The notes: generated by a model not told the origin, from the letters alone. Counted from the first letter of the stretch, positions 3,537 to 28,647 are shown. The stretch is DNA of 32,000 nt from Leptolyngbya sp. O-77 (GCF_001548395.1 NZ_AP017367.1:4859775-4891774), one strand, 5' to 3'. A program made the numbers and translations.

Positions 3537-3759
3537 GGGAAAAAAGCAGAAAGAAGAACGAAGAACGAAAAACGAAAAAAAACACCTATTTCTTCGTTCT
3601 TCCCTCTTCGTCCTTCTCTCTTCGTCCTTCCCTCTTCGTCCTTCCCTCTTCGTTCTTCCCTCTTCGTTCTTCGTCCTTCCCTCTTCGTTCTTCCCTCTTC
3701 GTTCTTCCCTCTTCCCTCTTCGTTCTTCCCTCTTCCCTCTTCGTTTTTCATTTTTTCTC
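3537..3759. repeat. Heptad polypurine/polypyrimidine array: a short GA arm (3537-3582), then about 24 heptads of TCTTCCC/TCTTCGT/CCTTCCC running to the GldG-like ATG
   Basis: The plus strand is almost pure C/T from 3589 to 3759. gaagaacgaagaa in the GA arm is the exact reverse complement of ttcttcgttcttc at the start of the CT arm. Confidence 0.9.
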
Positions 3760-5351
3760 ATGAAACTCCTCCGTCCCTACCTCAAACTCAAACACCTGAT
3801 CTGGCCTGGCCTGTTTCTCATTCTCATGGGGCTAACGGCAGGTCTGGTGGCAGGAACTTGGGGCCCCGTACCCGTCGGGCTATTGAGCGCGGGCATTGGG
3901 CTATTGGTGGTGTGGCTGGGGTCGCAGGCCAGCGGGTTTCAGGGGCTATGGGGTAAACGCTCGACCCAGGCAGGTACGAATGCGGTGCTGGCAACGCTGG
4001 CAGTGCTGGCCATTTTCCTGCTGACGAACTTTTTGGCATCGCGCTACAACACACGGCTAGACCTGACGGAAAATCGCCTATTTACTCTCGCGCCCCAGTC
4101 GCAGGAGGTGGTGCAGTCGCTCGAAGATCCGGTCAAGGTGTGGATTTTTGACCTGGCTCCAAATCCCGCCGATCGGGATCTGTTGGAAAACTATCGCCGC
4201 CAAAATCCCGACGGGTTTGCCTACGAATATGTCGATCCACAGGTGCAGCCCGGACTTGCCGAGCGCTTTGGCGTGCAGAACTTTGGCGAAGTGTATGTAG
4301 AGAAGGGCGATTCGCGAAGCGATCCCGCTGGGAATCGCCGTCAGTTGGTGCAGACCATCAGCCCATCCCAACGCCTCTCCGAGCGACGGCTGACCACTGC
4401 GCTGGTGAAGATCACGAGCGATCGCCAGACCAAGGTCTACTTTTTGCAAGGGCACGGCGAGCGGCAGCTAGACCCCGGTCAGGGCGGGCTGGGGCAAGCC
4501 GTCACCAGCCTAACAGACGAAACCTTTCAGGCAGAGCCGCTAAACCTGGCAAACACTGCCGAAATTCCCGCCGATGCTGCGGTGATTGTGGTGGCTGGGC
4601 CGCAGCGGCCGCTTTTGGCAGAAGAAATCTCTCGCCTCAAGGACTTTCAGACCCGCAAGGGCGGGCTGCTGCTGCTGGTCGATCCGCAGACCAATCCCGA
4701 ACTAGATGGCTTGCTGGAAGGCTGGGGCGTTGCCTTTAGCGATCGCGTCTTAGTAGACCCGGCCGCCGGACGCGATGGCGCAGTCACCATCATCACGGAA
4801 TACGGCCCCCACCCGATTACCGACGGACTCAACAACGGCATCACCTTCTTTCCCCTGGCGCGACCGCTGGAACTGGGCGAAGTCGAAGGCGTAGAGATCA
4901 CCCCACTGCTGTTTACCAACGTTCGCACCCAGGCGCAGCAGATTGGCGAAGACGGCCAACTCCAGCTTGACCCCGAAGCGCCAGAGGGCAATCTTGTTCT
5001 GGGCGCTGCCTTTAGCCGTCGCCTGTCAAACGCGCCCGCCCCCAACCCCCTCGCCCGATGCAGAGGAGCCCGCCTGTTCAGGACGAAGCGCGAATGGTGG
5101 CGATCGGCAACTCCACGTTTGCCACCAATGGACTAATTGATCAGCAGCTCAACCGCGACCTCTTCCTCAACGCTATTGGCTGGCTCAGCCAGGAAGCCGA
5201 CCCAACCTTCTCCGTCCGCGCCGCCGAACCCACCAATCGCCGCGTGCTGTTCTCGCCTTCCCAGCAAATTGCGCTGATTCTTGCCTCGCTGGTCTTTTTG
5301 CCGCTGGCGGGGCTGGCGCTAGCGGTGGGGGTGTGGTGGCGACGGCGCTAA
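3760..5351 (+). pseudogene. GldG-like ABC-transporter auxiliary protein with an apparent frameshift at about 5012-5090
   Basis: The 3760-5136 ORF has an N-terminal TM and GldG-like body. The 5058-5351 ORF carries the family C-terminus (MVAIGNSTFATNG...LFLNAIGWL plus a C-terminal TM) in another frame. The junction lies in C-rich runs. Confidence 0.6.
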
Positions 5352-5462: not shown

Positions 5463-6026
5463 ATGAAACTCAAGCCCGCTACTTTCTGGCTCCTCTTTGC
5501 CGCGCTGATCTTGGGCAGCGTCAGCCTGTGGTCGTTGCAGCAGCCTCCACGCACCGAAGAGGCAGGACAAACCACTCCGCAAAAGCTGTTTGCAATAGAG
5601 GAGAGCCAGATCCAGTCGCTGACGGTGAAAAAGCCGGATCAAACGCTGGTGTTTGAAAAAGACGAAAATGGCGTGTGGCAAATGAAGCAGCCCCAGCAAG
5701 GCGTGGCCAACGATGCCGCCGTTGCGTTTTTGGCGAACTTGCTGGCGACTGGGACGAGCGATCGCACTTTCTCGGTTCCCCCCGCTGACCTTGCCACCTA
5801 CGGACTCGACCAGCCCACCACCACCCTTGAATTCACCACCGCCGACGGCAAACCCCACACCCTCGCCCTCGGCAGCAAAAACTTTAACCAGAGCGCGATC
5901 TACGCCCTGATTGACGCACCGGAAAATCCGCAGAACCTCACCGTTTCTCTCGTCTCGCTCGATTTTGAAACCGCTACGGGGCGATCGCCCGATAGCTGGC
6001 TCCAGCCAGAAGCGGCAGGGGAGTGA
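5463..6026 (+). CDS. DUF4340-like protein (usual partner downstream of GldG-like genes)
   Basis: N-terminal signal-anchor, beta-rich body, and position directly after the GldG-like gene. Family assignment is from memory. Confidence 0.6.
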   Translation: MKLKPATFWLLFAALILGSVSLWSLQQPPRTEEAGQTTPQKLFAIEESQIQSLTVKKPDQTLVFEKDENGVWQMKQPQQGVANDAAVAFLANLLATGTSDRTFSVPPADLATYGLDQPTTTLEFTTADGKPHTLALGSKNFNQSAIYALIDAPENPQNLTVSLVSLDFETATGRSPDSWLQPEAAGE

Positions 6027-6150
6027 GGGAAGAGGGAAGAGAGAAGAGAGAAGAGAGAAGAGGGAAGAACGAAGAGGGAAGAACGAAGAGAGAACAGGTT
6101 TGGGAGATGCGTAAGAATTTTCGTTTTTCGTTCTTCGTTCTTCTTTTTTC
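6026..6150. repeat. Inverted copy of the heptad array: about 10 GA heptads (GGGAAGA/GAGAAGA/ACGAAGA), then a CT arm (6117-6150)
   Basis: Read directly. It lies between the convergent DUF4340 and yidD genes. The GA and CT arms can pair (gaagaacgaa / ttcgttcttc). Confidence 0.9.
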
Positions 6151-6393: not shown

Positions 6394-7053
6394 TCAAGCG
6401 GTAGGTTCGATGCCTATGGCCCGGAGCTGATCTGCCAGCAGGTCGGCGCGGTGCTGGGCTTGCAGGGCGACTTCTTCGGGCGTGGGCACGCGCTGCCCGT
6501 CGGGCTGAAAGTAGCGCAGGTTTCCGTCTTCTACGCCCAGATACAGGCTCAGGCTGTCGCTCCACAGCCACCCTGCCTCATTCGCGGCGATCGCCTCATA
6601 CACCTGGTTGACCAGCCGGAAGCCTTCTAGCTCCAGCGTGTCGGGCGAAAACCAAAAATATTCATGCGTCCGAAAGCGGTCTTGATATAGCTCCTTTTTC
6701 AGCGTCTGATCGACCTCAGCCGTGGACTCCGACAGCAGCTCGATAATCAGGTCGGGATATTTGCCGTCCTCTTCCCACACCACCCACGATTTGCGCGGGT
6801 GCTTCTGCGTCTTTTTGACCAGGAAAAAGTCGGGCCCGCGAAAGTCTCGATGCTTAAGCTGCTGACGGCTAAAGTAAATCGTCAAATTCGCGCCGATAAA
6901 GAAATCGGTGCGATCGCGCCACAGCCACTCCAAACACGCCACCAGCAGCGCCAACTGGGCATAGTGCAGCGAACTTTCCATTTCTGGCTCGTCGCTCTCG
7001 ATTTGGGTGGCATCTGGCATGAGGTCTGCCAACTGCTGCGCGGTGATGACCAT
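6394..7053 (-). CDS. Uma2 (DUF820) family putative endonuclease
   Basis: Motifs PDFFLV and PDLIIELLSEST fit the PD-(D/E)xK-like Uma2 core. I chose the start at MVITAQQ (ATG at 7053). Confidence 0.8.
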   Translation of the reverse strand: MVITAQQLADLMPDATQIESDEPEMESSLHYAQLALLVACLEWLWRDRTDFFIGANLTIYFSRQQLKHRDFRGPDFFLVKKTQKHPRKSWVVWEEDGKYPDLIIELLSESTAEVDQTLKKELYQDRFRTHEYFWFSPDTLELEGFRLVNQVYEAIAANEAGWLWSDSLSLYLGVEDGNLRYFQPDGQRVPTPEEVALQAQHRADLLADQLRAIGIEPTA

Positions 7054-7170
7054 CGGCGTGTGTCCAGATAGAACTGAAGGGGCGATTCGCGAAGCGTTCG
7101 CGCAAGCGGTGCGGCGCACTTTCCCTGCGAGAATCGCCCGCCTGTTTCCATCTTAGAGATTGGACGGGCG

Positions 7171-7274: not shown

Positions 7275-7760
7275 ATGCTAAGCAGCGGCAACTCGAATTT
7301 GAAGACTTACGATAGCTTACTGACGGCGATCGAATTTAGTGAAGGGCAACTGAGTCTTTTGCTGGCGGTGTGTGATGATCGGCAACGTCGAGCTGCTCTA
7401 ATTGCCAGCTGTGAACGCGACCTTGCGCCCCAGATTCGAGCCTATCGGCTGTCTCTAGACTGCTATGAACCGAGTTTGAAGGGTGCGATTTATCAAGTCT
7501 GGAAGCAAGATGATTACTTGCAACAGGGCGGACGTGCAGTGCTGACGCTGGAGATCACAGAACCGCTTTTAGAACAGAATCAGGAACAGGATGACACTGG
7601 GCGAGATAGGTTCTTTGGCTATTTGCAATGGACAAGAGAAGGGCTGCGAGAATTCCGTTTCCCGATTGTGATTTGGATGCCCTCGCTGTTTCTAGAAGTG
7701 CTGAGCCGTAGAGCGCCAGACTTTTGGAGCTGGCGTAAGGGTGTATTTCGATTTCTCTAA
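7275..7760 (+). CDS. Hypothetical 161-aa protein upstream of the NLR pair
   Basis: Clean ORF with an ATG start. Alternating hydrophobic strand-like segments (LLLAVCDD, AVLTLEI, FPIVIWMP). No catalytic motif recognised. Confidence 0.6.
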   Translation: MLSSGNSNLKTYDSLLTAIEFSEGQLSLLLAVCDDRQRRAALIASCERDLAPQIRAYRLSLDCYEPSLKGAIYQVWKQDDYLQQGGRAVLTLEITEPLLEQNQEQDDTGRDRFFGYLQWTREGLREFRFPIVIWMPSLFLEVLSRRAPDFWSWRKGVFRFL

Positions 7761-7829: not shown

Positions 7830-8285
7830 ATGGTTGACCCGGCAACGCTGACCGCAGGCGCGATCGCCACTCTTGCCTTCCAAAAGTTTATGGAAACGAG
7901 CGCGGGGAAACTGGCGGAAAAGTTTTCGGAAATGGCGATCGCCCGCATGGATGATCTCTTAAAGCGCATCTGGGCCAAGCTGCGCGGACGGCCGCGTGTG
8001 GAGGAGATCAAAGCCGCCGTCGAAAAGACCCACAAAATCACGGCAGAGCAGGTGAATCAAATCGCGGCCTATCTCCAGGTGGCGATGGACGAAGACCCGC
8101 AGTTTGCCAACGAGATTCGGCTTTTGGCCCAGGAAATCAACGCAGGCAAGCTGATCGACCAGAGCCACATGACGCAAAACATCATTGGCGACCATGCCAA
8201 AGGCTGGCAAACCAAAGTCGAAGGTGGCACGGCCTACATTGGCGACATCACCATTCACCAAACCCAACCGCCCGCAAGCTCCTGA
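7830..8285 (+). CDS. Small all-helical protein with a hydrophobic N-terminal helix and a C-terminal BASS-like motif (Bell/HeLo-like effector candidate)
   Basis: 151 aa. The N-terminus is MVDPATLTAGAIATLAFQKF. The C-terminal 29 aa (nt 8187-8273) match the N-terminus of the next gene. Confidence 0.7.
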   Translation: MVDPATLTAGAIATLAFQKFMETSAGKLAEKFSEMAIARMDDLLKRIWAKLRGRPRVEEIKAAVEKTHKITAEQVNQIAAYLQVAMDEDPQFANEIRLLAQEINAGKLIDQSHMTQNIIGDHAKGWQTKVEGGTAYIGDITIHQTQPPASS

Positions 8286-8298
8286 CGCAATCCTCCCC

Positions 8299-9738
8299 AT
8301 GAGCGACCAGCACATTCACGACCAGGGCAAGGGCTATCAGGTTGAAGTGAAAGGCGGCACAGCCTACATCGGCGACAACAAAATCTATCAACCGCTGCCA
8401 CCGCCCTCGCCTACCGGAATTCCTAGCAATCTGCCGCAGTATCCCAGTAAAACCTTTCGGGGGCGCGAGGACGACTGGGCCAAGCTGCACGACGCCTTGC
8501 AGCAGACGGAGCGAGTTGCGATCACTGCGCTGCACGGGATGGGCGGCGTGGGCAAAACGGAGCTGGCGCTGCAATATGCCACGGCAAAGCTGCGGGAGGG
8601 CGCGTATCCCGGTGGCGTGTGCTGGCTGGGGGCGCGAGAGCAAGAGATCGGCACGCAGATTACGCAATACTTTCAGGCGCAACTGGGATTGCAACTGCCG
8701 GAAGAGCTGGATGACCTGGCCGCGCAGGTGGGCTATTGCTGGCGGCACTGGCGCGAGGGCGAGGTGCTGGTGGTGGTGGACGACGTGGCCTATCAGCGGG
8801 TGGCGGAATACGAGAAAACGATCAAGCCCTACCTGCCCACCGACCCGCGCTTTCGGGTGGTGGTGACGACGCGCCAAGACCTGGGAGCCAGCTTTCGTCG
8901 GGTGCCGCTGGGCGTGCTGGCGGAAGGCGCGGCGCTGGACGTGCTGCGAGATTTGGCGGGAGCCAGCCGCATCGATAGCCAGATCGCTGACGCAAAGCGG
9001 CTCTGTGAATGGCTGGGCTATTTGCCGCTGGGGCTGGAGCTGGTGGGGCGATATTTGGCAAACAAGCCAGATTTGGCGCTGGCGGAACTGTTGCAGCGGC
9101 TGGATCGCCAAAAGCTGGCGGCGCGGGCGCTGAACAGACCAGAAGAGGTGATGACCGCCACCCACGAGAGCGTAGCCGCCGCCTTTGAACTAAGCTGGAA
9201 CGACCTGACGGCAGCGCAGCGGCAACTGGGAGAACGGCTGAGCCTGTTTGCGCTGGCCCCGATTCCCTGGGCACTGGTGGAAGCGATGCAGTCCGAAGCG
9301 GAGACCGAAGACCTGGAAGATGATTGCAGCACGCTGGTAAACCGCAACCTGCTGAACCGCGTGGGCGAGGGCAGCTACCAACTGCACAGCCTGATTCGCG
9401 AGTTTTTTGCGGCAAAGCGAGAGCAAGATGCTGATGCCAACACGCTGAAGCAAGCTCATTGCGCGGTGCTTGTGCAAATTGCCAAAGCGATTCCCTGGAC
9501 AGCCCCACAGGCAACCTATTTGGACGTTGCTCCGGTTGTGCCGCATCTGGTGGAAGTGGTGAATCACCACATGCAGGCGGTCAGCGATGAGGCGGTGCTT
9601 TCCCCTGCCAACGGGTTGGCAATGTTCTACTACGGACAGGGCTTGTATGCCGAAGGCGTGCGCTGGGCGGAGCAATGCAAGGAACAGGTGGAAAGCACGC
9701 CTGGGGCGCAGACCATCCCGACACGGCGAGTAGTTTGA
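8299..9738 (+). CDS. NB-ARC (STAND) NTPase module of an NLR-like protein; the reading frame breaks at about 9700 before the TPR array
   Basis: Walker A GMGGVGKT (8536-8559), Walker B VLVVVDDV, RVVVTTR, and the GLPLA-like LGYLPLGLELVG. The ATG at 8299 places the shared motif at aa 7-35. Confidence 0.85.
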   Translation: MSDQHIHDQGKGYQVEVKGGTAYIGDNKIYQPLPPPSPTGIPSNLPQYPSKTFRGREDDWAKLHDALQQTERVAITALHGMGGVGKTELALQYATAKLREGAYPGGVCWLGAREQEIGTQITQYFQAQLGLQLPEELDDLAAQVGYCWRHWREGEVLVVVDDVAYQRVAEYEKTIKPYLPTDPRFRVVVTTRQDLGASFRRVPLGVLAEGAALDVLRDLAGASRIDSQIADAKRLCEWLGYLPLGLELVGRYLANKPDLALAELLQRLDRQKLAARALNRPEEVMTATHESVAAAFELSWNDLTAAQRQLGERLSLFALAPIPWALVEAMQSEAETEDLEDDCSTLVNRNLLNRVGEGSYQLHSLIREFFAAKREQDADANTLKQAHCAVLVQIAKAIPWTAPQATYLDVAPVVPHLVEVVNHHMQAVSDEAVLSPANGLAMFYYGQGLYAEGVRWAEQCKEQVESTPGAQTIPTRRVV

Positions 9739-11624
9739 ACAATTTGGCGGGGTTGTATCACTCAATGGGACGCTACAGTGAGGCGGAACCGTTGTATCGG
9801 CGATCGCTCGCCATCCGCGAAGCGCAGCTCGGCGCAGACCATCCCGCCACGGCGAGTAGTTTGAACGCTTTGGCGGGGTTGTATTGCTCAATGGGTCGCT
9901 ACAGTGAGGCGGAACCGTTGTATCGGCGATCGCTCGCCATCTACGAAGCGCAGCTCGGCGCAGACCATCCCGCCACGGCGAGTAGTTTGAACAATTTGGC
10001 GGGGTTGTATTACTCAATGGGTCGCTACAGTGAGGCGGAACCGTTGTATCGGCGATCGCTCGCCATCCGCGAAGCGCAGCTCGGCGCAGACCATCCCGAC
10101 ACGGCGAGTAGTTTGAACAATTTGGCGGGGTTGTATCGCTCAATGGGACGCTACAGTGAGGCGGAACCGTTGTATGGGCGATCGCTCGCCATCCACGAAG
10201 CGCAGCTCGGCGCAGACCATCCCGACACGGCGATGAGTTTGCACAATTTGGCGGGGTTGTATTACTCAATGGGACGCTACAGTGAGGCGGAACCGTTGTT
10301 GGTGCGATCGCTCGCCATCCGCGAAGCGCAGCTCGGCGCAGACCATCCCGCCACGGCGAGTAGTTTGCACAATTTGGCGGGGTTGTATTACTCAATGGGA
10401 CGCTACAGTGAGGCGGAACCGTTGTTGGTGCGATCGCTCGCCATCCACGAAGCGCAGCTCGGCGCAGACCATCCCGCCACGGCGAGTAGTTTGAACAATT
10501 TGGCGGCGTTGTATGACTCAATGGGACGCTACGGTGAGGCGGAACCGTTGTTTCGGCGATCGCTCGCCATCCGCGAAGCGCAGCTCGGCGCAGACCATCC
10601 CGACACGGCGACGAGTTTGCACAATTTGGCGGCGTTGTATGAATCAATGGGACGCTACAGTGAGGCGGAACCGTTGTATCGGCGATCGCTCGCCATCCGC
10701 GAAGCGCAGCTCGGCGCAGACCATCCCGACACGGCGAGGAGTTTGAACAATTTGGCGGGGTTGTATGAATCAATGGGACGCTACAGTGAGGCGGAACCGT
10801 TGTATGGGCGATCGCTCGCCATCTGCGAAGCGCAGCTCGGCGCAGACCATCCCGACACGGCGAGGAGTTTGAACAATTTGGCGGGGTTGTATGAATCAAT
10901 GGGACGCTACAGTGAGGCGGAACCGTTGTATGGGCGATCGCTCGCCATCCGCGAAGCGCAGCTCGGCGCAGACCATCCCGACACGGCGAGTAGTTTGAAC
11001 AATTTGGCGGGGTTGTATCGCTCAATGGGACGCTACAGTGAGGCGGAACCGTTGTATGGGCGATCGCTCGCCATCCGCGAAGCGCAGCTCGGCGCAGACC
11101 ATCCCGACACGGCGAGTAGTTTGAACAATTTGGCGGCGTTGTATCGCTCAATGGGTCGCTACAGTGAGGCGGAACCGTTGTATGGGCGATCGCTCGCCAT
11201 CCACGAAGCGCAGCTCGGCGCAGACCATCCCGCCACGGCGAGTAGTTTGAACAATTTGGCGGGGTTGTATGAATCAATGGGTCGCTACAGTGAGGCGGAA
11301 CCGTTGTATGGGCGATCGCTCGCCATCTGCGAAGCGCAGCTCGGCGCAGACCATCCCGACACGGCGAGTAGTTTGAACAATTTGGCTCTGTTGTATTACT
11401 CAATGGGACGCTACAGTGAGGCGGAACCGTTGTATTTGAGGGCGCTGCCGATTTTATTCAGCCGCCTGGGGCAAGACCATCCCACCGCTCAAACGGTAAG
11501 GAAAAACTTTGAGGAGCTTGTAAAGTTAGCAGTGCAGGCGAGGCGGGCGGGCGAGTTGTCTGACCATCCGCTGACGCAGGCGCTGATTCAGCAGATTCCA
11601 GGCGGAGAAGAAATAGAGCGGTAG
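9675..11624 (+). CDS. TPR (TPR_10/12, kinesin-light-chain-like) sensor array. It is almost certainly the C-terminal continuation of 8299-9738 in another frame.
   Basis: 14 units of a 42-aa repeat (GADHPDTASSLNNLAGLYxSMGRYSEAEPLYxRSLAIxEAQL) plus a degenerate cap. Confidence 0.85.
   Translation: MQGTGGKHAWGADHPDTASSLNNLAGLYHSMGRYSEAEPLYRRSLAIREAQLGADHPATASSLNALAGLYCSMGRYSEAEPLYRRSLAIYEAQLGADHPATASSLNNLAGLYYSMGRYSEAEPLYRRSLAIREAQLGADHPDTASSLNNLAGLYRSMGRYSEAEPLYGRSLAIHEAQLGADHPDTAMSLHNLAGLYYSMGRYSEAEPLLVRSLAIREAQLGADHPATASSLHNLAGLYYSMGRYSEAEPLLVRSLAIHEAQLGADHPATASSLNNLAALYDSMGRYGEAEPLFRRSLAIREAQLGADHPDTATSLHNLAALYESMGRYSEAEPLYRRSLAIREAQLGADHPDTARSLNNLAGLYESMGRYSEAEPLYGRSLAICEAQLGADHPDTARSLNNLAGLYESMGRYSEAEPLYGRSLAIREAQLGADHPDTASSLNNLAGLYRSMGRYSEAEPLYGRSLAIREAQLGADHPDTASSLNNLAALYRSMGRYSEAEPLYGRSLAIHEAQLGADHPATASSLNNLAGLYESMGRYSEAEPLYGRSLAICEAQLGADHPDTASSLNNLALLYYSMGRYSEAEPLYLRALPILFSRLGQDHPTAQTVRKNFEELVKLAVQARRAGELSDHPLTQALIQQIPGGEEIER
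9705..11468 (+). repeat. 14 tandem 126-bp units (intragenic), near-identical at the nucleotide level
   Basis: Units start at 9705 + 126n. The units at 10083 and 10965 differ by 1 nt in the stretch I compared. Each unit contains a HIP1 site. Confidence 0.95.
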
Positions 11625-11639
11625 GGCGCAATTTTCCTG

Positions 11640-12011
11640 TTAGGCTTCTGAAGTCAACCCAGCCAGCACTCGATATTCCGGCGGGATAAGTCCTTGCACA
11701 ATATCCTGCTGCGGAATGCCCAACGTGATTAATTCCGCTTCAATTTCAACCTCAGTTTGATTGCGCTGAATCCAGACCTTTCCCTCGCGGATGTCCAGAT
11801 GCATCAACACCCAATACACCCGCTCTTGCCCGCGCCATCCCTGACTGAGGATTAAATAGCGATCGCGCTTCGGGTCAAAAATAGGCTGACTCTCAATCCC
11901 GCTGCCATCATCTTCGCTGCTTTGACTCAACAAAAACTGCATCACAATCTGACGATAGCGCTCAATCCCTGACAACCCATCTTGGGAAATATTCACCAGT
12001 TCTACAGCCAT
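11640..12011 (-). CDS. xisI: XisI family protein
   Basis: Has the XisI-like core YLILSQGWRGQERVY...GKVWIQRNQTEVEI. It overlaps the xisH stop by 10 nt. Confidence 0.85.
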   Translation of the reverse strand: MAVELVNISQDGLSGIERYRQIVMQFLLSQSSEDDGSGIESQPIFDPKRDRYLILSQGWRGQERVYWVLMHLDIREGKVWIQRNQTEVEIEAELITLGIPQQDIVQGLIPPEYRVLAGLTSEA

Positions 12012-12424
12012 TGCAAAACCTCCTGACGAATGGGGTCGTATACCATTAACGACAAACCATTTTCCTGAACGAGACGTTTTGGAAACGGACGTTGAAAAAA
12101 GTCAGCATACGCGGCAAGCGGAATCGCTAGGTAGAGCTGGCGATCGGGTTCCAACTCTGACAGCGCTAAACGATAGGCAATAAACTGTCCCAACGCAGCA
12201 TGGAGTTCATTGGTTGGCGAAGATGAAATAAAACTCTTCACTTCAACCGCAATTTTCTCCGTATCCCGCTCGGCAGCCAAAACTCCGTCAGCTAAGGCTT
12301 CAGCCCCAAAATCAACTTCTAGCTTCACGCCCCCGATTTCCAGCTTGAGCGGGTCATGGGTTATCTTCCAGCCTGCCTTGATCAAAGCAGCTTTGACTTG
12401 CGAGTAGAAGCGATCTCTAGCCAT
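12002..12424 (-). CDS. xisH: XisH family protein
   Basis: MARDRFYSQVKAALIKAGWKITHDP...KIAVEVKSF...ALGQFIAYR matches the XisH pattern. Start taken at 12424. Confidence 0.85.
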   Translation of the reverse strand: MARDRFYSQVKAALIKAGWKITHDPLKLEIGGVKLEVDFGAEALADGVLAAERDTEKIAVEVKSFISSSPTNELHAALGQFIAYRLALSELEPDRQLYLAIPLAAYADFFQRPFPKRLVQENGLSLMVYDPIRQEVLQWL

Positions 12425-12495
12425 GCCTCTGCGAGCTGATGCCACCCTTTCATCATAATTCTATGAGACAGGGGTATTACACGGTCGCGGTTAGG

Positions 12496-13083: not shown

Positions 13084-13303
13084 GGAATAACCGTCAATCA
13101 ATTTGCGTAAATGTCCGACAAAGCAGCGCGATCGCTATTTCTAGCTAATTACATTTCTAGCTAATTACATTTCATCAAAATAGAATCAAAGTTCAGATCT
13201 GCAAGGCTAACGCCAACGCCCCTGCGCCAAATTCCCTCATCTAGCGATCGCCTATACTGAAGGCACTGCTTTGGATGCGAACTCGTGACGGGGAGGGGGT
13301 TTG

Positions 13304-13891
13304 ATGGCGATCGCAACGCAAAAACTGACCTTTGAGGAGTACCTGACCTACAGCGATGGCACTGATACCCGCTATGAACTGGTCGATGGAGAACTGGTGC
13401 CCATGAGTCTGGGAACTGGCAAACATGGGGCAATCATCCGGTTTATTGTGCAGCAATTTGAAGGCGCACTGGCGCAATCCGGACAGCCCTGGGTGGCGTT
13501 GCCTGCTCTGGTGGGGGTTCGTTCTCCACGAGGGCGCAACTGGGACACGTCTCGCATTCCCGATGTCACAGTTTTAACGCTGGCTCAGTGGGAAGCGATG
13601 GGCGACCGCGAAGCGGTGATTAACCTAAATGAATCGCCTCCCCTTTTGGTGGTTGAGGTTGTCAGTCCCTCTACCAAAATGGATGACTACCGCTCGAAAC
13701 GGGCTGAGTATGGATTGCTAGACATCCCTGAATATTGGATCGTAGACCCGCTAGATGAAAAAGTTACGATCTGTCTTCTGGAGCATCATTTCTACGACGC
13801 GGCGGAATACCAAGGAAATGATTTGATTCAATCGCCTACCTTTCCAGAGCTTCGCCTCACTGCCGCTCAAATCCTTGCAGGCAAGCGGTAG
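13304..13891 (+). CDS. Uma2 (DUF820) family putative endonuclease
   Basis: YELVDGELVPM, IPDVTVL and LLVVEVVSPST are Uma2 motifs. The ATG at 13304 is preceded by GGAGGGGG. Confidence 0.8.
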   Translation: MAIATQKLTFEEYLTYSDGTDTRYELVDGELVPMSLGTGKHGAIIRFIVQQFEGALAQSGQPWVALPALVGVRSPRGRNWDTSRIPDVTVLTLAQWEAMGDREAVINLNESPPLLVVEVVSPSTKMDDYRSKRAEYGLLDIPEYWIVDPLDEKVTICLLEHHFYDAAEYQGNDLIQSPTFPELRLTAAQILAGKR

Positions 13892-13894
13892 GCT

Positions 13895-13943
13895 CCAAAG
13901 TCCACAATCCAAAGTCCCCAATCCAAAATCCAAAATCGCCAAC
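13895..13943. repeat. Heptamer (STRR-like) repeats CCAAAGT/CCACAAT/CCCCAAT/CCAAAAT
   Basis: Seven consecutive heptads between the convergent genes. They are the complement of the 7171-7200 family. Confidence 0.7.
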
Positions 13944-16002: not shown

Positions 16003-16584
16003 ATGATGGCTCAAACTGAGACAAAACGCTATACCGCTGAAGAATATTTGGAACTTGAAGTTGCGTCGGAAACCCGCAACGAATATCGCGATGGAGAAAT
16101 TGTTCCTATGACGGGCGGCACCCCAAACCACAATGACATCGCAGGAAACTTATATATTCTGCTTAAATCTGCCCTTAAAGGAAAAGACCATCGGATCTTC
16201 TATGCTGATCAGCGGCTCTGGATTCCCGGCGCAAGTCTCTATACATATCCTGATGTGATGGTTTTGCCAAAGCCGCTAGAGTTGCAAGCTGGGCGAAAAG
16301 ACACGGTGATGAATCCCTGTTTTATTGCTGAGGTGTTGTCCAAATCAACCCGTAGCTATGACCGGAGTGATAAATTTGCAGCTTATCGCACCATCTCTAG
16401 CTTTCAGGAATACCTGCTCATTGATCAGGATAAAATCCACGTTGAGCATCATGTAAAAGTTGCGGAAAATCAATGGCTTTTTTCTGAATATAACGATCCA
16501 GAATTTAACCTTTCACTTCGCACATTAGATTTGCAAGTTCAGATTGCAGATCTCTACGAAAATATTGAGTTTTCTGAAAGTTAA
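16003..16584 (+). CDS. Uma2 (DUF820) family putative endonuclease (third paralogue; lower GC)
   Basis: YTAEEYLELE, EYRDGEIVPM, YPDVMVL and CFIAEVLSKST motifs. Confidence 0.8.
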   Translation: MMAQTETKRYTAEEYLELEVASETRNEYRDGEIVPMTGGTPNHNDIAGNLYILLKSALKGKDHRIFYADQRLWIPGASLYTYPDVMVLPKPLELQAGRKDTVMNPCFIAEVLSKSTRSYDRSDKFAAYRTISSFQEYLLIDQDKIHVEHHVKVAENQWLFSEYNDPEFNLSLRTLDLQVQIADLYENIEFSES

Positions 16585-19030: not shown

Positions 19031-19329
19031 TTCGGAGTGGCGACTCGTTCGTAGTGGCGACTTCAGTCGCCCGATTCAAGGCTTCGGAGTGGCGACTTCA
19101 GTCGCCCGATTCAAGGCTTCGTAGTGGCGACTTCAGTCGCCCGATTCAAGGCTTCGGAGTGGCGACTTCAGTCGCCCGATTCAAGGCTTCGGAGTGGCGA
19201 CTTCAGTCGCCCGATTCAAGGCTTCGGAGTGGCGACTTCAGTCGCCCGATTCAAGGCTTCGTAGTGGCGACTTCAGTCGCCCGATTCAAGGCTTTTCGGA
19301 GGCAGACTAAAGTCTGCACTACAAACTAG
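19031..19329. repeat. 35-bp tandem array (7 full units plus a degenerate leader). Each unit holds the hairpin GGCGAC-TTCA-GTCGCC. The array ends with a related hairpin, GCAGACT-AA-AGTCTGC.
   Basis: Hairpins start at 19056, 19091, 19126, 19161, 19196, 19231 and 19266, an exact 35-bp period. The only variation is G/T in cgGagt versus cgTagt. Confidence 0.95.
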
Positions 19330-20395: not shown

Positions 20396-20499
20396 AAATC
20401 TGTAAAAGACCTATGATGCTTCCTGGTTGCTTCTCATCAAGCAGCCTCGATCCAGCAACCTGTGCTAGGGCGATCGCCCCTCTCTCCTTCTGCAAACCC

Positions 20500-20916
20500 A
20501 TGCTGCAAAATCTCGCGTTCCGAACCCCAATGGCGATCGCCCTAGGAGCCATCCTCGGTGCCCTCAGCCGCTACTTTCTCAGCAGTTGGATTTCCCACTG
20601 GGGCGGGTCTGACTTGCCCTTGGGTACGCTGCTGGTCAACCTGACGGGCTGTTTTGGTATGGGGCTATTGGCGACGCTGTTTAGCCAGCGGGTGCTGGGT
20701 CATGCGCCCGAACTCCAGCTCATGCTGACGACCGGGTTTCTCGGCTCCTACACCACCTTCTCCAGCTATGAGCTAGACCTGGCGCGGCTGGCCTATCGGC
20801 GAGAACTGTTGGCCGACGGGCTATATTGGGGCGCGAGTACCCTGCTGGGGTTCGGGAGCCTGCTGCTGGGGGTGTGGGTCGCTAGGGCGATCGCCCCGCC
20901 TGTCACCCTAGATTGA
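20500..20916 (+). CDS. crcB: Fluoride ion channel CrcB (copy 1)
   Basis: GALSRY..., GTLLVNLTGCF and GFLGSYTTFSSY motifs. The start is uncertain (20413, 20500 or 20529). Confidence 0.8.
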   Translation: MLQNLAFRTPMAIALGAILGALSRYFLSSWISHWGGSDLPLGTLLVNLTGCFGMGLLATLFSQRVLGHAPELQLMLTTGFLGSYTTFSSYELDLARLAYRRELLADGLYWGASTLLGFGSLLLGVWVARAIAPPVTLD

Positions 20917-20950
20917 CCCAAAGCTTGATCCAAACTACCCCTCCCTCATC

Positions 20951-21364
20951 ATGTCTGCTGGATCAGATTCGCTACCGCTAACCGTGCTGCTCATTTCCCT
21001 GGGCGCGGTGCTGGGCGCATGGAGCCGCTACTATGTCACCCGATTTTGCACCCGGCGGTTTGGGCTGGACTTTCCTGTGGGGACGCTGCTGGTGAACCTG
21101 TCTGGGTCGCTGCTGATGGGCGTGGCGGCGGGGCTGTTTCGCATTCGCTTTGCGCTGCCCAATCTCGATCACCTGTTTATGGTTGGGTTTTTCGGCTCCT
21201 ACACGACCTTTTCCACCTACGCGCTGGATGTCCATGCCCTGTTTCGACGAAAGGCGATCGCCCCAGCACTGCTCTTTTGGCTGGGCAGTCCGCTGGCGGG
21301 GTTTCTGTGTGTAGAACTGGGCATCTTGCTGGCGCTCTGGCTAACGGGGGGAATTTCCTCCTGA
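20951..21364 (+). CDS. crcB: Fluoride ion channel CrcB (copy 2)
   Basis: GAWSRYY, GTLLVNLSGSL and GFFGSYTTFSTY motifs. A tandem crcB pair suggests a heterodimer. Confidence 0.85.
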   Translation: MSAGSDSLPLTVLLISLGAVLGAWSRYYVTRFCTRRFGLDFPVGTLLVNLSGSLLMGVAAGLFRIRFALPNLDHLFMVGFFGSYTTFSTYALDVHALFRRKAIAPALLFWLGSPLAGFLCVELGILLALWLTGGISS

Positions 21365-26991: not shown

Positions 26992-27412
26992 CAGCCTGAT
27001 CCTCCCTGGCTCTCCATCTTCTGCAACCGCTCCTGTGCCCATTCTCGTAGTTGTTCATCGGGGTCATTGAGGGCGCGATCGCGCAGCAGCGCCGGAACTT
27101 TAGGATTGTTAGGATAATAAGTGGAGAGAGCCTGTAAAGCTAGTTGACGTGGGCTATCTACAGCACAACCTACTAAACTTCCCGCCGCATCCATAGAGTA
27201 AAAATTGTTTTCTACTGCAACTTCGCTCAGTGATGCAATTAAGCTTGGATGATCTTTCCAATTATCCACTAGTCCGAGTATCGCAGCCAAACACATTTCT
27301 TGTAGGACTGCCTCTTTTGCTGTATTCACAAGCCAATGATAAACCATTGTATCGCCTCGTCCTACATCAGCAATAAGGCGGACTATCTTAATACATTCCT
27401 TAACAAGGAATA

Positions 27413-28647
27413 CTTACATCTTGCACCAGTACAGATGAACGGCTTTTCGGCGGGTGCAATCAATGAGAGAAAAGGGCGTGAAGTCACAAACAACAAGAAC
27501 AGTGGAAACCATTCTTGGCACGCCCAAGCGTTAGTCTACACCCTGCTCAGCCTGATGCCGAGTGCCTACCAAAGAGACAGCCTGCAAGCGATGCTGGGGT
27601 TGTTCCTAGAAGCTCAAGGGCAACCCTCGCCGCAACACAGTTTGATTAAGTCGGGTAGTGCGTTGAGCCGATTTCTCAACGAGTATGCCTGGCCCACCCG
27701 CCAAGTCGTGCGCGTGGTGCGACGGCAGATCGTGCAGCAACTGTTGCAGTCTGCTCCAAAGGTCGCCGTCCCTGGTTGCAGGTGGTGGTGGATCTGACGA
27801 CGTTGGAGAAATGCGGCAAGTTCAAAGCGTTTGCATCGCTGATTCGTGTGCTGCAAGGCAAGCGAGGATTGCATCTGGTGGTGCTGTATCTGGTGGTTGG
27901 AGAGTGTCGAGTGCCCTGGAGTTTTCGGTCTGGCGTGGCAAACATCAGCGGACTGCGGTGCAGTTGGCGATTCGCTTAATAGGTAGCTTGCCCCCTGCGT
28001 TAACGAGCGCCTTCCGGGTGGTCATTCTGGCAGACACCGCCTTTGGCAGCGTGGCCTTCCTCAAAGCGATGCGAAAGCGCCGTTACTCGGTAATTGTCGG
28101 GGTGCGGTGTGACCGCAAACTGGCTGATGGTCGCTGTGTGAGCAAACTGGTGAAAAAAGGGCAACAGGTGGCTTAGAGGGACTGAACTTCCCGGTGACGA
28201 TTTCTTGGCTTTACCTCAAACGCGACGGCCAGTTGGAGAAACGCTTTGTCCTCTCGACTCGTCCCCTCAAAGGCAGCACCATCACTTGGTGGGGGCGCGT
28301 AGACGATGGAGCATTGAGGGATTTTTCAAAACCATCAAACATCGCTTTGGGTTGCATCGCTTTGCTCAGCAGACGCTCAAGGGCGTATATCGCTGGTTGA
28401 TGTTGTGTTTCCTCAGCTTTGTGCTGGTTCATTGGGTTACCGCGCAACTCACGCCAAAGCGACCCCTGATTGGAAAGTCGCTGCAACTGCTGCATTAGAC
28501 GCCTTGTTCCCGGAAGTCGCAGCTTGTTTAGCGCTGCTTCAAGTTGAGCGAGCGCGATCCCTGCTCGATTCACTCGGTATTGCGGTGCACTTTGTCCACC
28601 TCGCTGAGCTAAAAACGTAGGCTAAATGTACTGGTGCAAGATGTAAG
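27413..28647 (+). mobile_element. Degenerate IS4/IS701-like insertion sequence (1235 bp) with 21-bp perfect terminal inverted repeats and a 4-bp AATA target duplication
   Basis: The left end cttacatcttgcaccagtaca is the exact reverse complement of the right end tgtactggtgcaagatgtaag. AATA occurs at 27409-27412 and 28648-28651. The DDE-like pieces (VVVDLTTLEK, VVILADTAFGS, RWSIEGFFKTIK) lie in different frames. Confidence 0.8.
27435..28620 (+). pseudogene. DDE transposase remnant, at least 4 frame breaks or stops
   Basis: ORFs 27336-27797, 27776-27979, 27685-28176, 28205-28498 and 28405-28620 together tile one transposase. Confidence 0.7.

What the first reader, a model, noticed from the sequence alone, without database searches (positions are those of the whole stretch)
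9705..11468. Fourteen near-identical 126-bp TPR units whose differences fall in a handful of codons
The units repeat with an exact 126-bp period. Non-adjacent units are almost identical: the units at 10083 and 10965 differ at one nucleotide in the stretch I compared.

Nearly all differences are non-synonymous and recur at the same repeat positions:
- position 6: D/A
- position 9: S/M/T/R
- position 12: N/H
- position 13: N/A
- position 16: G/A/L
- position 19: H/C/Y/R/D/E
- positions 31-32: YR/YG/LV/FR/YL
- position 38: R/Y/H/C

I saw only one recurrent synonymous difference (GGA/GGT Gly). High inter-repeat identity from unequal recombination or conversion, combined with hypervariable surface positions, is the signature described for fast-evolving NLR sensor domains. 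It suggests a diversifying ligand-recognition surface. Every unit also carries a HIP1 (GCGATCGC) site.
Basis: seen in the sequence. Interest (0 to 1): 0.7.

Follow-up and report, generated by a model that had tools for sequence, protein, structure and literature searches.

The report
Hypervariable TPR sensor of cyanobacterial NLR
The repeat array is real: it is the sensor end of an immune-receptor-like (NLR-type) gene in a hot-spring cyanobacterium, kept almost identical from unit to unit while a few likely ligand-contact residues vary, a pattern already described for fungal and bacterial NLRs; in this genome the gene is also broken by a frameshift.

Summary
At 9705-11468 there are 13 units of exactly 126 bp (94.5% nt, 88.8% aa identity) and a 14th that diverges after about nt 93. 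Differences fall in 11 of 42 codons. At least 21 of 22 inferred changes are non-synonymous. All 13 units carry a different combination of variable residues.

The window is from Thermoleptolyngbya (Leptolyngbya) sp. O-77. The array is the C-terminal 42-residue (kinesin-light-chain-type) TPR domain of an NB-ARC STAND/NLR-like gene. A small helical gene lies 13 bp upstream, and its C-terminal motif matches the NLR N-terminus. This is the Bell/BASS amyloid-signalling layout.

Six variable positions form one stripe on helix A, at canonical TPR ligand-binding positions 2, 5, 6, 9 and 12 plus a likely equivalent of 33. Four lie on helix B and are unresolved. The same positions are the most variable in 12 distant relatives.

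Synonymous divergence is 1.2% within the array, 3-11% between orthologous arrays and 15-19% in flanking DNA, which indicates concerted evolution. Unit number is 14, 13, 5 or 2 among strains.

New here: NB-ARC and TPR are in different frames (+2 nt against five orthologues), so this is a pseudogene or a local assembly error.

Verdict: a clean new member of a known kind (high-internal-conservation NLR repeats). Moderate interest.

The parts
7275..7760 (+). Conserved 161-aa ORF of unknown function directly upstream of the Bell-like gene. Whether it belongs to the system is uncertain.
   Evidence: No hit in Pfam, NCBIfam or PADLOC. The same ORF sits upstream of the Bell-like gene in L031 at 89% nt identity, and it is on the Logan contig L027. 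It is absent at this place in L029 and L030.
7830..8285 (+). Bell-like putative effector gene (151 aa): an N-terminal all-helical domain of about 100 aa and a C-terminal BASS-like motif (about 8169-8261).
   Evidence: The family has 454 proteins at E<=1e-5. The 120 best listed are about 121-161 aa, and every one that carries an organism name is cyanobacterial. The C-terminal motif KGWQTKVEGGTAYIG is highly conserved. The AF2 model with an MSA gives helices at residues 9-105 (pLDDT about 70-84) and a low-confidence tail at 109-151 with short strands. The C-terminus aligns to the NLR N-terminus at 54% identity over 37 aa, E 5e-13. This layout is the one defined by Dyrka/Daskalov et al. (bioRxiv 10.1101/2020.01.06.895854).
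8299..8391 (+). N-terminal BASS-like motif of the NLR (MSDQHIHDQGKGYQVEVKGGTAYIGDNKIYQ).
   Evidence: It matches the C-terminus of the upstream gene. The start at 8299, 13 bp after the upstream stop, is the start called on Logan contig L027 and in the NCBI protein BAU44504.1.
8299..9738 (+). NB-ARC NTPase ORF (479 aa, frame 1). P-loop GMGGVGKT is at 8536-8559 and Walker B LVVVDD at 8767-8784. The ORF ends at a TGA inside TPR unit 1 because of the frameshift.
   Evidence: Pfam NB-ARC E 1.1e-13, covering residues 95-338 of ORF 8185-9738. The product is 100% identical to the Leptolyngbya sp. O-77 protein BAU44504.1 / WP_172799734.1. The motifs were read from the translation.
9692..9705 (+). Frameshift site. 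There are two extra bases relative to all five orthologues (GAAGC to GAAAGC, and GGG to GGGG), which moves the TPR domain into frame 3.
   Evidence: Nucleotide alignments to L029 and L030, and junction translations of L001 and L002. The orthologues read ...CKEQVEARLGPDHP... in one frame, and the intact orthologue P0121 is 1064 aa.
9705..11342 (+). Thirteen high-internal-conservation 42-residue TPR units (126 bp each). This is the hypervariable sensor array.
   Evidence: Pfam TPR_12 2e-253 and TPR_10 1.8e-196. AF2 pLDDT 89, with helix A at unit positions 5-20 and helix B at 24-42. The closest solved structures are kinesin light chain TPR domains and the 42PR proteins 4Y6C and 4Y6W.
11343..11468 (+). 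Unit 14, a cap-type unit. Its first 93 nt resemble the array and the rest diverges (YLRALPILFSRL). It has no HIP1 site.
   Evidence: The same cap unit ends the arrays of L029, L030 and L031.
11469..11624 (+). Non-repetitive C-terminal helices and the stop codon of the TPR ORF.
   Evidence: Logan short-read contig L028 is 100% identical from 18011 back to 11406 and stops there, which is where a k=31 assembly is expected to break at the array.

Best explanation
The array encodes the ligand-sensing domain of an NLR-like STAND protein of Thermoleptolyngbya sp. O-77. The protein has an N-terminal BASS-like motif, an NB-ARC NTPase and a 14-unit 42-residue TPR superhelix.

It is a high-internal-conservation (HIC) repeat domain. 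Frequent unequal recombination or gene conversion between units keeps the scaffold nearly identical at the nucleotide level, and it also changes unit number and order. Amino-acid diversity is retained at a few positions, chiefly one exposed stripe of helix A that lines the concave TPR groove. Each unit therefore offers a different contact surface, and reshuffling units produces new binding specificities.

Inferred mechanism, not shown here:
1. A ligand binds in the groove.
2. This relieves autoinhibition of NB-ARC, which oligomerises.
3. The clustered N-terminal motifs template the matching C-terminal motif of the adjacent 151-aa Bell-like protein.
4. That protein then acts as a cell-death or membrane effector.

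In the deposited O-77 genome a +2-nt change at 9692-9705 separates NB-ARC from TPR. This copy is therefore either a recently inactivated pseudogene or carries a local consensus error. The array's pattern reflects selection that acted while the gene was intact.
For: **Shown**
- The array is exact and far from random.
- NB-ARC lies directly upstream, and it is fused in frame to the TPR domain in the orthologues.
- The fold is a 42-residue TPR of kinesin-light-chain type.
- From the Pfam TPR_1, TPR_2 and TPR_8 alignments, canonical TPR position = unit position minus 7.
- Variable positions 9, 12, 13, 16 and 19 are therefore canonical 2, 5, 6, 9 and 12. Position 6 I equate with canonical 33 by its place before helix A (an inference). 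Positions 2, 5, 6, 9 and 12 contact ligand in HOP, and 2, 5, 9, 12 and 33 are among the most variable concave-face positions of TPRs (PMC1261162).
- They form a helical stripe (resultant 0.66, P = 0.02) that points 160 degrees away from the hydrophobic stripe L11/L14/A15/Y18.
- In 12 distant arrays the six most variable positions (19, 16, 9, 38, 6, 31) are all variable here too (Mann-Whitney P = 5e-4).
- 21 of 22 minimal changes are non-synonymous, and nt identity (94.5%) exceeds aa identity (88.8%).
- Synonymous differences are 0.012 within the array, 0.03-0.11 between orthologous arrays and 0.15-0.19 in the flanks.
- The four-gamete test shows a mosaic in 50 of 91 site pairs, and all 13 unit signatures are distinct.
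- Unit number is 14, 13, 5 or 2 at syntenic loci.
- The upstream gene's C-terminus matches the NLR N-terminus, and the upstream protein is helical with a beta-prone tail.

**From the literature**
- HIC TPR, WD and ANK repeats with positive selection on the binding face and repeat-number polymorphism characterise fungal NLRs (PMC4986451).
- They are reported to be enriched in NLRs of Cyanobacteria and Actinobacteria (bioRxiv 10.1101/2020.01.06.895854; PMC13449251).
Against: - NB-ARC and TPR are not in one frame in this assembly. The orthologue in strain PKUAC-SCTB121 has an independent 5-nt deletion in NB-ARC. The receptor may therefore be non-functional in these cultured strains.
- Four variable positions (25, 31, 32, 38) lie on helix B, which as a rule lines the convex face (PMC5642895). 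Positions 31 and 38 fall on the same helical stripe as the buried residues.
- The excess of non-synonymous change is only moderately significant when counted as events (P = 0.018). No recombination-aware codon model was run.
- No ligand, no activity and no defence phenotype is known. PADLOC finds no known defence family apart from a generic TPR model.
- The short-read correction (iCORN2) used for this genome can misplace variants among near-identical units (PMC5745016).
Confidence: 0.75

Rival explanations
1. A very recent tandem amplification is now decaying neutrally. The gene is a pseudogene, and the differences between units are unselected mutations accumulating at tolerant surface positions.
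For: There is a frameshift at 9692-9705. The orthologue in SCTB121 is also frameshifted, and a metagenome contig holds only a TPR remnant. The scaffold identity is very high.
Against: - Neutral decay should give about 24% synonymous changes and hit codons at random. Observed: 1 of 22 synonymous, and 11 codons hit against 17 expected.
- Several codons differ at 2-3 nucleotides (GAA/TAC/CGC/TGC; AAT/GCT) while 31 codons are invariant.
- The same positions vary in intact orthologues (L031, 1064 aa) and in 12 distant arrays.
Confidence: 0.1
2. The protein is not an immune-type receptor. It is a regulatory or scaffold NB-ARC-TPR protein, for example of the FxSxx-COOH system TPR family or an AfsR-like regulator, and the repeat variation tunes binding to an endogenous partner.
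For: The intact orthologue P0121 scores 457 bits on NCBIfam NF040586 FxSxx_TPR (cut-off 300), with weaker matches to AfsR. No PADLOC defence model matches the NB-ARC part.
Against: - No Fxs-type genes (radical SAM or an FxSxx-COOH peptide) were found among the window's ORFs.
- There is no DNA-binding domain.
- The paired motif with a small upstream helical protein is the Bell/BASS layout.
- Endogenous partners do not predict hypervariable groove residues, different arrays in every strain, or frequent pseudogenisation.
Confidence: 0.1
3. Assembly artefact: the array length, or the placement of variants among units, results from mis-assembly or mis-polishing of a shorter or different repeat.
For: Short-read assemblies break at or collapse this array (L001, L002 and L028 end in it). 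The genome was polished with short reads (iCORN2), which map ambiguously in repeats. The frameshift sits at the array edge, in two homopolymers.
Against: - The genome was assembled from PacBio RSII reads of a 17-kb library, 598 Mb of reads for a 5.48-Mb genome, so single reads span the 1.76-kb array.
- An independent 4.94-Mb contig (L031) carries a 13-unit orthologous array, and the complete SCTB121 genome carries a 5-unit one.
- The period is exact and has no indels.
Confidence: 0.04
4. Targeted hypermutation, by a diversity-generating retroelement or a similar system, writes the variable codons.
For: DGRs do diversify putative sensors of conflict systems in multicellular bacteria (PMC10907252, listed).
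Against: - None of the window ORFs scanned against Pfam has a reverse-transcriptase domain.
- The tandem-repeat scan of the window found no copy of the unit outside the array that could serve as a template repeat.
- The variable columns are not adenine-specific: the consensus bases include G, C and T.
- DGR targets are C-type lectin or Ig-like folds rather than TPR arrays (my own knowledge).
Confidence: 0.01

Closest known systems
High-internal-conservation (HIC) TPR, WD40 and ANK repeat domains of fungal NLRs (Podospora NB-ARC/TPR genes such as Pa_2_10340; the het-e/het-d NWD family)
   Same: - Repeats are 42-residue TPRs (Pfam TPR_10) attached to NB-ARC.
- Units are at least 85% identical.
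- A handful of hypervariable positions sit in the helices of the concave face.
- Repeat number differs between strains.
- Evolution is concerted and mosaic, and pseudogenes are frequent (PMC4986451; PMC13449251).
   Different: - This is a bacterial gene, arranged with its effector gene like an operon.
- Diversity was shown here within one array and between 5 strains, not in a population sample.
- No allorecognition or defence phenotype is known.
Bell/BASS-NLR gene pairs of filamentous bacteria (Dyrka, Daskalov, Saupe et al. 2020)
   Same: - A small helical protein of about 100 aa carries a C-terminal motif that is repeated at the N-terminus of an adjacent, collinear NB-ARC-TPR gene. The gap here is 13 bp.
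- The host is a filamentous cyanobacterium.
- The paper itself notes HIC TPR and WD repeats in such bacterial NLRs.
   Different: - I could not assign the motif (KGWQTKVEGGTAYIGD) to one of BASS1-10, because the logos are figures.
- The Bell domain was inferred from size, helicity and context, not from a profile match.
- Amyloid formation was not tested.
Kinesin light chain TPR domain and the 42PR class (PDB 3NF1, 7AI4, 3ZFW; 4Y6C and 4Y6W of Marold et al. 2015)
   Same: - The repeat is 42 residues with helix A, helix B and a GxxHP loop.
- Sequence identity is 36-46%, with E down to 4e-50.
- 4Y6C and 4Y6W derive from a natural repeat protein with high internal identity.
   Different: KLC has six diverged repeats and binds cargo peptides in eukaryotes. 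It has no NTPase, no unit-to-unit near-identity and no repeat-number variation.
Bacterial antiviral STAND proteins (Avs) and bNACHT
   Same: A STAND NTPase with a C-terminal TPR-like sensor that recognises a ligand and triggers an N-terminal effector (my own knowledge; cited in PMC13449251).
   Different: - No PADLOC Avs or bNACHT model matches.
- Avs sensors are not HIC arrays.
- The effector here is a separate protein, recruited through a shared short motif.

Membership tests
NLR-like STAND NTPase (NB-ARC + TPR) | NB-ARC/AP-ATPase domain with a P-loop and Walker B | tested here: met
   Pfam NB-ARC E 1.1e-13. GMGGVGKT is at 8536-8559 and LVVVDD at 8767-8784. TTR and LPLGL motifs were read from the translation.
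NLR-like STAND NTPase (NB-ARC + TPR) | NTPase and repeat sensor on one polypeptide | tested here: not met
   In this assembly NB-ARC (frame 1, stop at 9738) and TPR (frame 3) are separated by a +2-nt shift at 9692-9705. The feature is met in the orthologues P0121 (1064 aa) and P0003 (603 aa).
HIC repeat domain (Dyrka et al. 2014 criterion) | Repeats at least 85% identical over at least 100 aa | tested here: met
   Thirteen units (546 aa) have mean pairwise aa identity of 88.8% (range 81-98%) and nt identity of 94.5%.
HIC repeat domain (Dyrka et al. 2014 criterion) | Variation concentrated at a few positions, with an excess of non-synonymous change | tested here: met
   11 of 42 codons vary (P about 1e-4). 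21 of 22 changes are non-synonymous (P = 0.018). pN/pS is 3.1. No recombination-aware site model was run.
HIC repeat domain (Dyrka et al. 2014 criterion) | Hypervariable positions lie on the ligand-binding (concave) face | tested here: inconclusive
   Helix-A positions 9, 12, 13, 16 and 19 map to canonical 2, 5, 6, 9 and 12, and position 6 probably to 33. They lie on one exposed stripe.
HIC repeat domain (Dyrka et al. 2014 criterion) | Repeat-number polymorphism and concerted evolution between strains | tested here: met
   Syntenic loci have 14 (O-77), 13 (L031), 5 (SCTB121) and 2 (C42 MAG, possibly collapsed) units. Synonymous divergence is 0.012 within the array, 0.03-0.11 between arrays and 0.15-0.19 in the flanks.
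Bell/BASS amyloid-signalling gene pair | Adjacent collinear effector and NLR genes that share a short motif, at the C-terminus of one and the N-terminus of the other | tested here: met
   The gap is 13 bp. The motifs are 54% identical over 37 aa, E 5e-13.
Bell/BASS amyloid-signalling gene pair | Effector has a Bell domain of about 100 aa, all helical | tested here: inconclusive
   AF2 gives helices at residues 9-105 at moderate confidence. No Bell profile exists in Pfam, NCBIfam or PADLOC to test homology.
Bell/BASS amyloid-signalling gene pair | The motif forms amyloid and the NLR side templates the effector side | not testable with these tools
   This needs fibril or prion assays of the kind reported in bioRxiv 10.1101/2020.01.06.895854.
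42-residue (KLC-type) TPR, Pfam TPR_10/TPR_12 | Profile match and a helix-turn-helix repeat of 42 residues | tested here: met
   TPR_12 2e-253 and TPR_10 1.8e-196, with 14 stretches. AF2 pLDDT 89 with two helices per 42 residues. KLC1 E 4e-50.
FxSxx-COOH system TPR protein (NCBIfam NF040586) | Score above the curated cut-off | tested here: inconclusive
   The intact orthologue P0121 scores 457 bits (cut-off 300). The split O-77 NB-ARC ORF scores 98 bits.
FxSxx-COOH system TPR protein (NCBIfam NF040586) | Genomic association with the other Fxs genes | tested here: not met
   No radical-SAM or Fxs-type genes were found among the ORFs of the 32-kb window or in the gene tables of L029, L030 and L031.
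Diversity-generating retroelement target | Nearby reverse transcriptase and template repeat, with adenine-specific variation | tested here: not met
   No RT domain in the window. No unit copy outside the array in the tandem-repeat scan. Variable columns are not restricted to A.
Avs / bNACHT defence systems | Match to PADLOC models | tested here: not met
   Only a generic TPR model (PDLC01169) matches.

The most novel reading that the evidence does not exclude
TPR units may be exchanged between strains or between paralogous NLR genes as a shared pool of modules. Array units of O-77 and SCTB121 differ at 2.8% of synonymous codons, while the NB-ARC DNA immediately upstream differs at 15%. For three other strains the figures are about 10% against 18%. 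Homogenisation within a genome cannot produce this. If real, cyanobacterial NLR sensors would diversify by horizontal shuffling of recognition modules, as was recently proposed for fungal HIC TPR NLRs. A further possibility is that repeated inactivation of the locus (two independent frameshifts and one deletion) reflects a cost of autoimmunity.
Probability: 0.15. Interest if true: 0.6.

Novelty: new member of a known kind. Interest (0 to 1): 0.38.

Why it matters
This is an unusually clean bacterial example of the mode of evolution proposed to let fungal NLRs generate new recognition specificities: an identical scaffold with a variable contact stripe.

- All 13 units are different, and nucleotide identity is about 95%.
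- An adjacent Bell/BASS-type effector gene is present.
- Syntenic alleles from five other genomes or contigs show intact, frameshifted and truncated states.

The organism is a culturable thermophile with a complete genome. The locus could therefore serve to test experimentally whether HIC TPR arrays in bacterial NLRs are real ligand sensors, and whether repeat shuffling changes specificity.

It does not reveal a new kind of system. The phenomenon has been described for fungi and explicitly noted for Cyanobacteria.

Tried and rejected
- **DGR-type hypermutation.** Rejected: no RT domain, no unit copy outside the array to act as a template repeat, and the variation is not adenine-specific.
- **Programmed -1 frameshift at the NB-ARC/TPR junction.** Rejected as unlikely. 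Reading 9670-9738 by eye, I found no X XXY YYZ slippery heptamer, and all five orthologues are in frame.
- **HIP1 as a special feature of the unit.** Rejected. HIP1 is about 76-fold over-represented across the whole window and is absent from unit 14.
- **The 737-aa antisense ORF 9190-11403.** Treated as a by-product of a stop-free repeat unit.
- **Rfam gathering search of the window.** No match.
- **PADLOC.** No defence family beyond a generic TPR model.
- **Independent check of the frameshift.** I tried to find an independent short-read contig across the frameshift.
- **Metagenome scan with a unit pattern.** One contig only (L032), so no population sample could be built.
- **Marold et al. 2015 (42PR paper).** It could not be read.
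- **BASS class.** It could not be assigned, because the motif logos are figures.

Full report

Tandem Repeats Finder reports one array at 9705-11435 with period 126, 13.7 copies, 95% matches and no indels. Cutting the sequence every 126 bp from 9705 gives 13 units that differ pairwise at 1-14 of 126 nucleotides. Mean identity is 94.5% nt and 88.8% aa.

Unit 14 (11343-11468) matches the others over its first 93 nt (93%) and then diverges into a cap-like end. The units at 10083 and 10965 differ at exactly one base.

The statistics are as follows:
- The 18 variable nucleotide columns fall in 11 of 42 codons. Random placement of 22 changes would hit 17.3 codons (P about 1e-4).
- A minimum of 22 nucleotide changes is needed, and at most one is synonymous. 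Random mutation of this unit would give 24% synonymous (binomial P = 0.018).
- Pooled Nei-Gojobori pN/pS is 3.1.

One correction concerns HIP1 (GCGATCGC). It occurs in units 1-13 but not in unit 14. It is about 76-fold over-represented throughout the window: 51 sites outside the array against 0.7 expected. Its presence in the unit is unremarkable.

**2. What is the array part of?**

The array lies in ORF 9675-11624 (frame 3). This ORF matches Pfam TPR_12 (2e-253) and TPR_10 (1.8e-196). Directly upstream, ORF 8185-9738 (frame 1) is an NB-ARC NTPase (1.1e-13).

The NB-ARC product from the ATG at 8299 is 100% identical to BAU44504.1 / WP_172799734.1 of Leptolyngbya (Thermoleptolyngbya) sp. O-77, on a 5,480,261-bp record. 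XisH/XisI and the high HIP1 density fit a cyanobacterium.

The five orthologues I could read across the junction have NB-ARC and TPR in a single frame:
- L001 and L002: ...WAE(R/Q)CKEQ(V/A)EARLGPDHP...
- P0003: 603 aa
- P0121: 1064 aa, with 13 units
- L029: in frame at this junction

The O-77 sequence has two extra bases against all five: GAAGC becomes GAAAGC at about 9693, and GGG becomes GGGG at about 9705. As deposited, the gene is therefore split.

The genome was assembled from PacBio RSII reads (17-kb library, HGAP3, about 109x) and then corrected with short reads using iCORN2 (PMC5745016).
- Long reads easily span 1.76 kb, so I trust the array length.
- Both extra bases extend homopolymers at the edge of a repeat, where short reads map ambiguously. 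I cannot tell a real 2-nt frameshift from a residual consensus error.
- Other large genes in the window are intact: RecQ 789 aa, a Na+/H+ exchanger 706 aa and a histidine kinase 664 aa. The assembly is therefore not generally indel-ridden.

**3. The neighbouring effector gene**

The preceding gene (7830-8285, 151 aa) ends 13 bp before the NLR start. Its C-terminus (NIIGDHAKGWQTKVEGGTAYIGDITIHQ) aligns with the NLR N-terminus (MSDQHIHDQGKGYQVEVKGGTAYIGDNKIYQ) at 54% identity over 37 residues, E 5e-13.

The protein belongs to a well-conserved family of about 150-aa proteins. Every listed member that carries an organism name is cyanobacterial, and the motif KGWQTKVEGGTAYIG is nearly invariant. 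An AF2 model with that alignment gives helices over residues 9-105 and a low-confidence tail with short strands.

This is the layout defined for Bell-domain/BASS amyloid-signalling pairs in filamentous bacteria. A small helical effector carries a C-terminal motif that is repeated at the N-terminus of an adjacent, collinear NB-ARC/TPR gene (bioRxiv 10.1101/2020.01.06.895854). Two limits apply: I could not assign the motif to a numbered BASS class, and there is no Bell profile in the available libraries.

**4. Where do the variable residues sit?**

AF2 on the TPR ORF (pLDDT 89, pTM 0.83) gives helix A at unit positions 5-20 and helix B at 24-42. Foldseek and sequence searches place it with kinesin light chain TPR domains (36-46% identity) and the 42PR proteins 4Y6C and 4Y6W.

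The Pfam TPR_1, TPR_2 and TPR_8 alignments fix the register: canonical TPR position = unit position minus 7.

Helix A:
- Unit positions 9, 12, 13, 16 and 19 are canonical 2, 5, 6, 9 and 12.
- Position 6 corresponds, by my inference from its place two residues before helix A, to canonical 33.
- Magliery and Regan identified 2, 5, 9, 12, 13, 33 and 34 as the most variable TPR positions, all on the concave face. Positions 2, 5, 6, 9, 12 and 13 contact ligand in HOP (PMC1261162).
- The six positions form a stripe (resultant 0.66, P = 0.02) pointing 160 degrees away from the hydrophobic stripe L11/L14/A15/Y18.
- Helix A lines the groove in KLC-type TPRs (PMC5642895).

Helix B:
- Positions 25, 31, 32 and 38 are on helix B.
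- Position 31 is the canonical core position F24, and it varies only among Y, F and L.
- Positions 31 and 38 share a stripe with the buried residues.
- Without model coordinates I could not decide whether these are interface, edge-of-groove or convex residues.

**5. Comparison with relatives**

In 12 NB-ARC-TPR relatives at about 50% identity (Nostoc, Brasilonema, Komarekiella and others), arrays are 58-88% identical at the nucleotide level. The O-77 array, at about 95%, is at the extreme. The six positions with the highest within-array entropy in these relatives (19, 16, 9, 38, 6, 31) are all variable here (Mann-Whitney P = 5e-4).

Syntenic orthologous loci were recovered from four other Thermoleptolyngbya-like genomes.

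| Genome or locus | Units | State of the NLR gene |
|---|---|---|
| O-77 (window) | 14 | +2-nt frameshift at the NB-ARC/TPR junction |
| L031 (4.94-Mb contig) | 13 | Intact, 1064 aa |
| PKUAC-SCTB121 (complete genome) | 5 | 5-nt deletion in NB-ARC |
| C42_A2020_037 (short-read MAG, possibly collapsed) | 2 | Intact, 603 aa |
| YM_bin7 (L001) | at least 5 | Contig ends inside the array |

- No unit signature is shared between strains, and all 13 O-77 units have distinct signatures.
- Synonymous-codon differences are 0.012 within the O-77 array, 0.03-0.11 between orthologous arrays, and 0.15-0.19 in the adjacent NB-ARC DNA. This is the pattern of concerted evolution.
- 50 of 91 informative site pairs within a 126-bp unit show all four gametes. 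This indicates recombination or recurrent change at the variable sites.

**6. The locus decays often**

- The SCTB121 orthologue has an independent 5-nt deletion in NB-ARC. It is not in a homopolymer, so it is probably real.
- A metagenome contig (L032) keeps only a three-unit TPR remnant next to yidD, with no Bell or NB-ARC gene.
- Short-read assemblies end in the array. Logan contigs are 100% identical to the window and stop at 11406, where a k=31 graph is expected to branch.

**7. Mechanism**

The following points are shown:
- an NLR-like architecture;
- a HIC TPR array;
- variation concentrated on an exposed helix-A stripe;
- homogenisation within genomes;
- differences in repeat number and content between genomes;
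- a motif-sharing upstream gene.

The following steps are inferred from the families involved:
1. A ligand binds in the TPR groove.
2. NB-ARC oligomerises.
3. The N-terminal motif templates the Bell-like protein.
4. That protein causes cell death or membrane damage.

Unequal recombination both maintains unit identity and generates new combinations of units.

**8. Comparison with what is known**

This is the high-internal-conservation (HIC) NLR repeat phenomenon.
- It was described for WD40 repeats in Podospora and extended to TPR and ANK repeats. Positive selection and polymorphic sites were mapped to the concave face on a KLC2 template, and repeat number varied from 2 to more than 14 (PMC4986451).
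- The bacterial BASS paper states that fungal and bacterial NLRs share HIC WD and TPR repeats.
- A 2026 study reports that HIC is enriched in NLRs of Cyanobacteria and Actinobacteria, and that HIC TPR NLRs exchange repeats between genes (PMC13449251).

The finding is therefore a new, unusually clean member of a known kind, not a new kind.

**9. Alternatives**

- **Neutral decay after recent amplification.** This does not fit the near-absence of synonymous change, the multi-nucleotide codon differences, or the same hot positions in intact orthologues.
- **DGR-type hypermutation.** Excluded by the absence of an RT and of any unit copy outside the array, and by the mutation spectrum.
- **Assembly artefact for the array.** Unlikely, given spanning long reads and independent long arrays in orthologues.
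- **Non-immune role, for example the NCBIfam FxSxx_TPR family.** The intact orthologue passes that cut-off. This cannot be excluded by sequence alone, but no Fxs genes are linked and the Bell/BASS layout argues otherwise.

**10. One unexplained point**

Arrays are 2- to 6-fold less diverged between strains at synonymous sites than the flanking NB-ARC DNA. Homogenisation within a genome does not predict this. Exchange of units between strains or paralogues is one possible cause. I could not test it, because the full genomes were not searchable.

Noticed in passing
window 9692-9705; L029 about 4919-4923; L032 1-900: The NLR locus is damaged in a different way in several genomes. O-77 has +2 nt at the NB-ARC/TPR junction. 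PKUAC-SCTB121 has a 5-nt deletion inside NB-ARC. A metagenome contig keeps only a 3-unit TPR remnant next to yidD.
   Followed up: yes
window 7830-8285 and 8299-8391: The 151-aa upstream protein and the NLR share a motif of about 30 residues (KGWQTKVEGGTAYIGD / KGYQVEVKGGTAYIGD), at the C-terminus of one and the N-terminus of the other. This is a Bell/BASS-type amyloid-signalling layout.
   Followed up: yes
window 9705-11342 compared with L029, L030, L031 and L001: Array units are 2-6 times less diverged between strains at synonymous sites (0.03-0.11) than the adjacent NB-ARC coding DNA (0.15-0.19). Within-genome homogenisation does not explain this.
   Followed up: partly
window 7275-7760 (+): A conserved 161-aa ORF lies directly upstream of the Bell-like gene. 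It is also there in L031 (89% nt identity). It has no hit in Pfam, NCBIfam or PADLOC.
   Followed up: partly
window 19048-19294: A 35-bp tandem repeat with 7.1 copies at 98% identity. Each unit holds the hairpin GGCGAC-TTCA-GTCGCC. It is intergenic, between recQ (-) and a Band_7/SPFH gene (+). There is no Rfam match and no spacers, so it is not a CRISPR array.
   Followed up: partly
window 29892-30917 (-) and 27336-28498 (+): A second STAND gene has an NNH2 domain (PF22734, 3e-55) but only the first 45 or so positions of NACHT, so it appears truncated. It lies close to DDE transposase fragments spread over three reading frames.
   Followed up: partly
window 11640-12445 (-): A XisH/XisI gene pair lies immediately downstream of the NLR. 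It is absent from the corresponding place in the syntenic loci L029, L030 and L031.
   Followed up: partly
window 6394-7119 (-), 13301-13891 (+), 16003-16584 (+): Three Uma2-family (PF05685, putative restriction endonuclease) genes are scattered around the NLR locus. The orthologous loci also carry Uma2 genes, at varying places.
   Followed up: no
window 20413-21364 (+): Two tandem crcB (fluoride channel) genes, with no fluoride riboswitch found at Rfam gathering thresholds.
   Followed up: no
window 9190-11403 (-): A 737-aa antisense ORF runs through the whole array. It is most simply a by-product of a repeat unit that has no stop codon in that frame.
   Followed up: partly
window 3591-3749, 6025-6098, 13894-13942: Short intergenic heptamer-type tandem repeats (for example GAGGGAA x10.6 and TCTTCGTTCTTCCC x12).
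   Followed up: no
P0121 (L031 4001-7195): The intact orthologue passes the NCBIfam cut-off for 'FxSxx-COOH system tetratricopeptide repeat protein' (457 against 300 bits), although no Fxs genes are nearby. Automatic naming of such cyanobacterial NLRs may therefore be misleading.
   Followed up: partly
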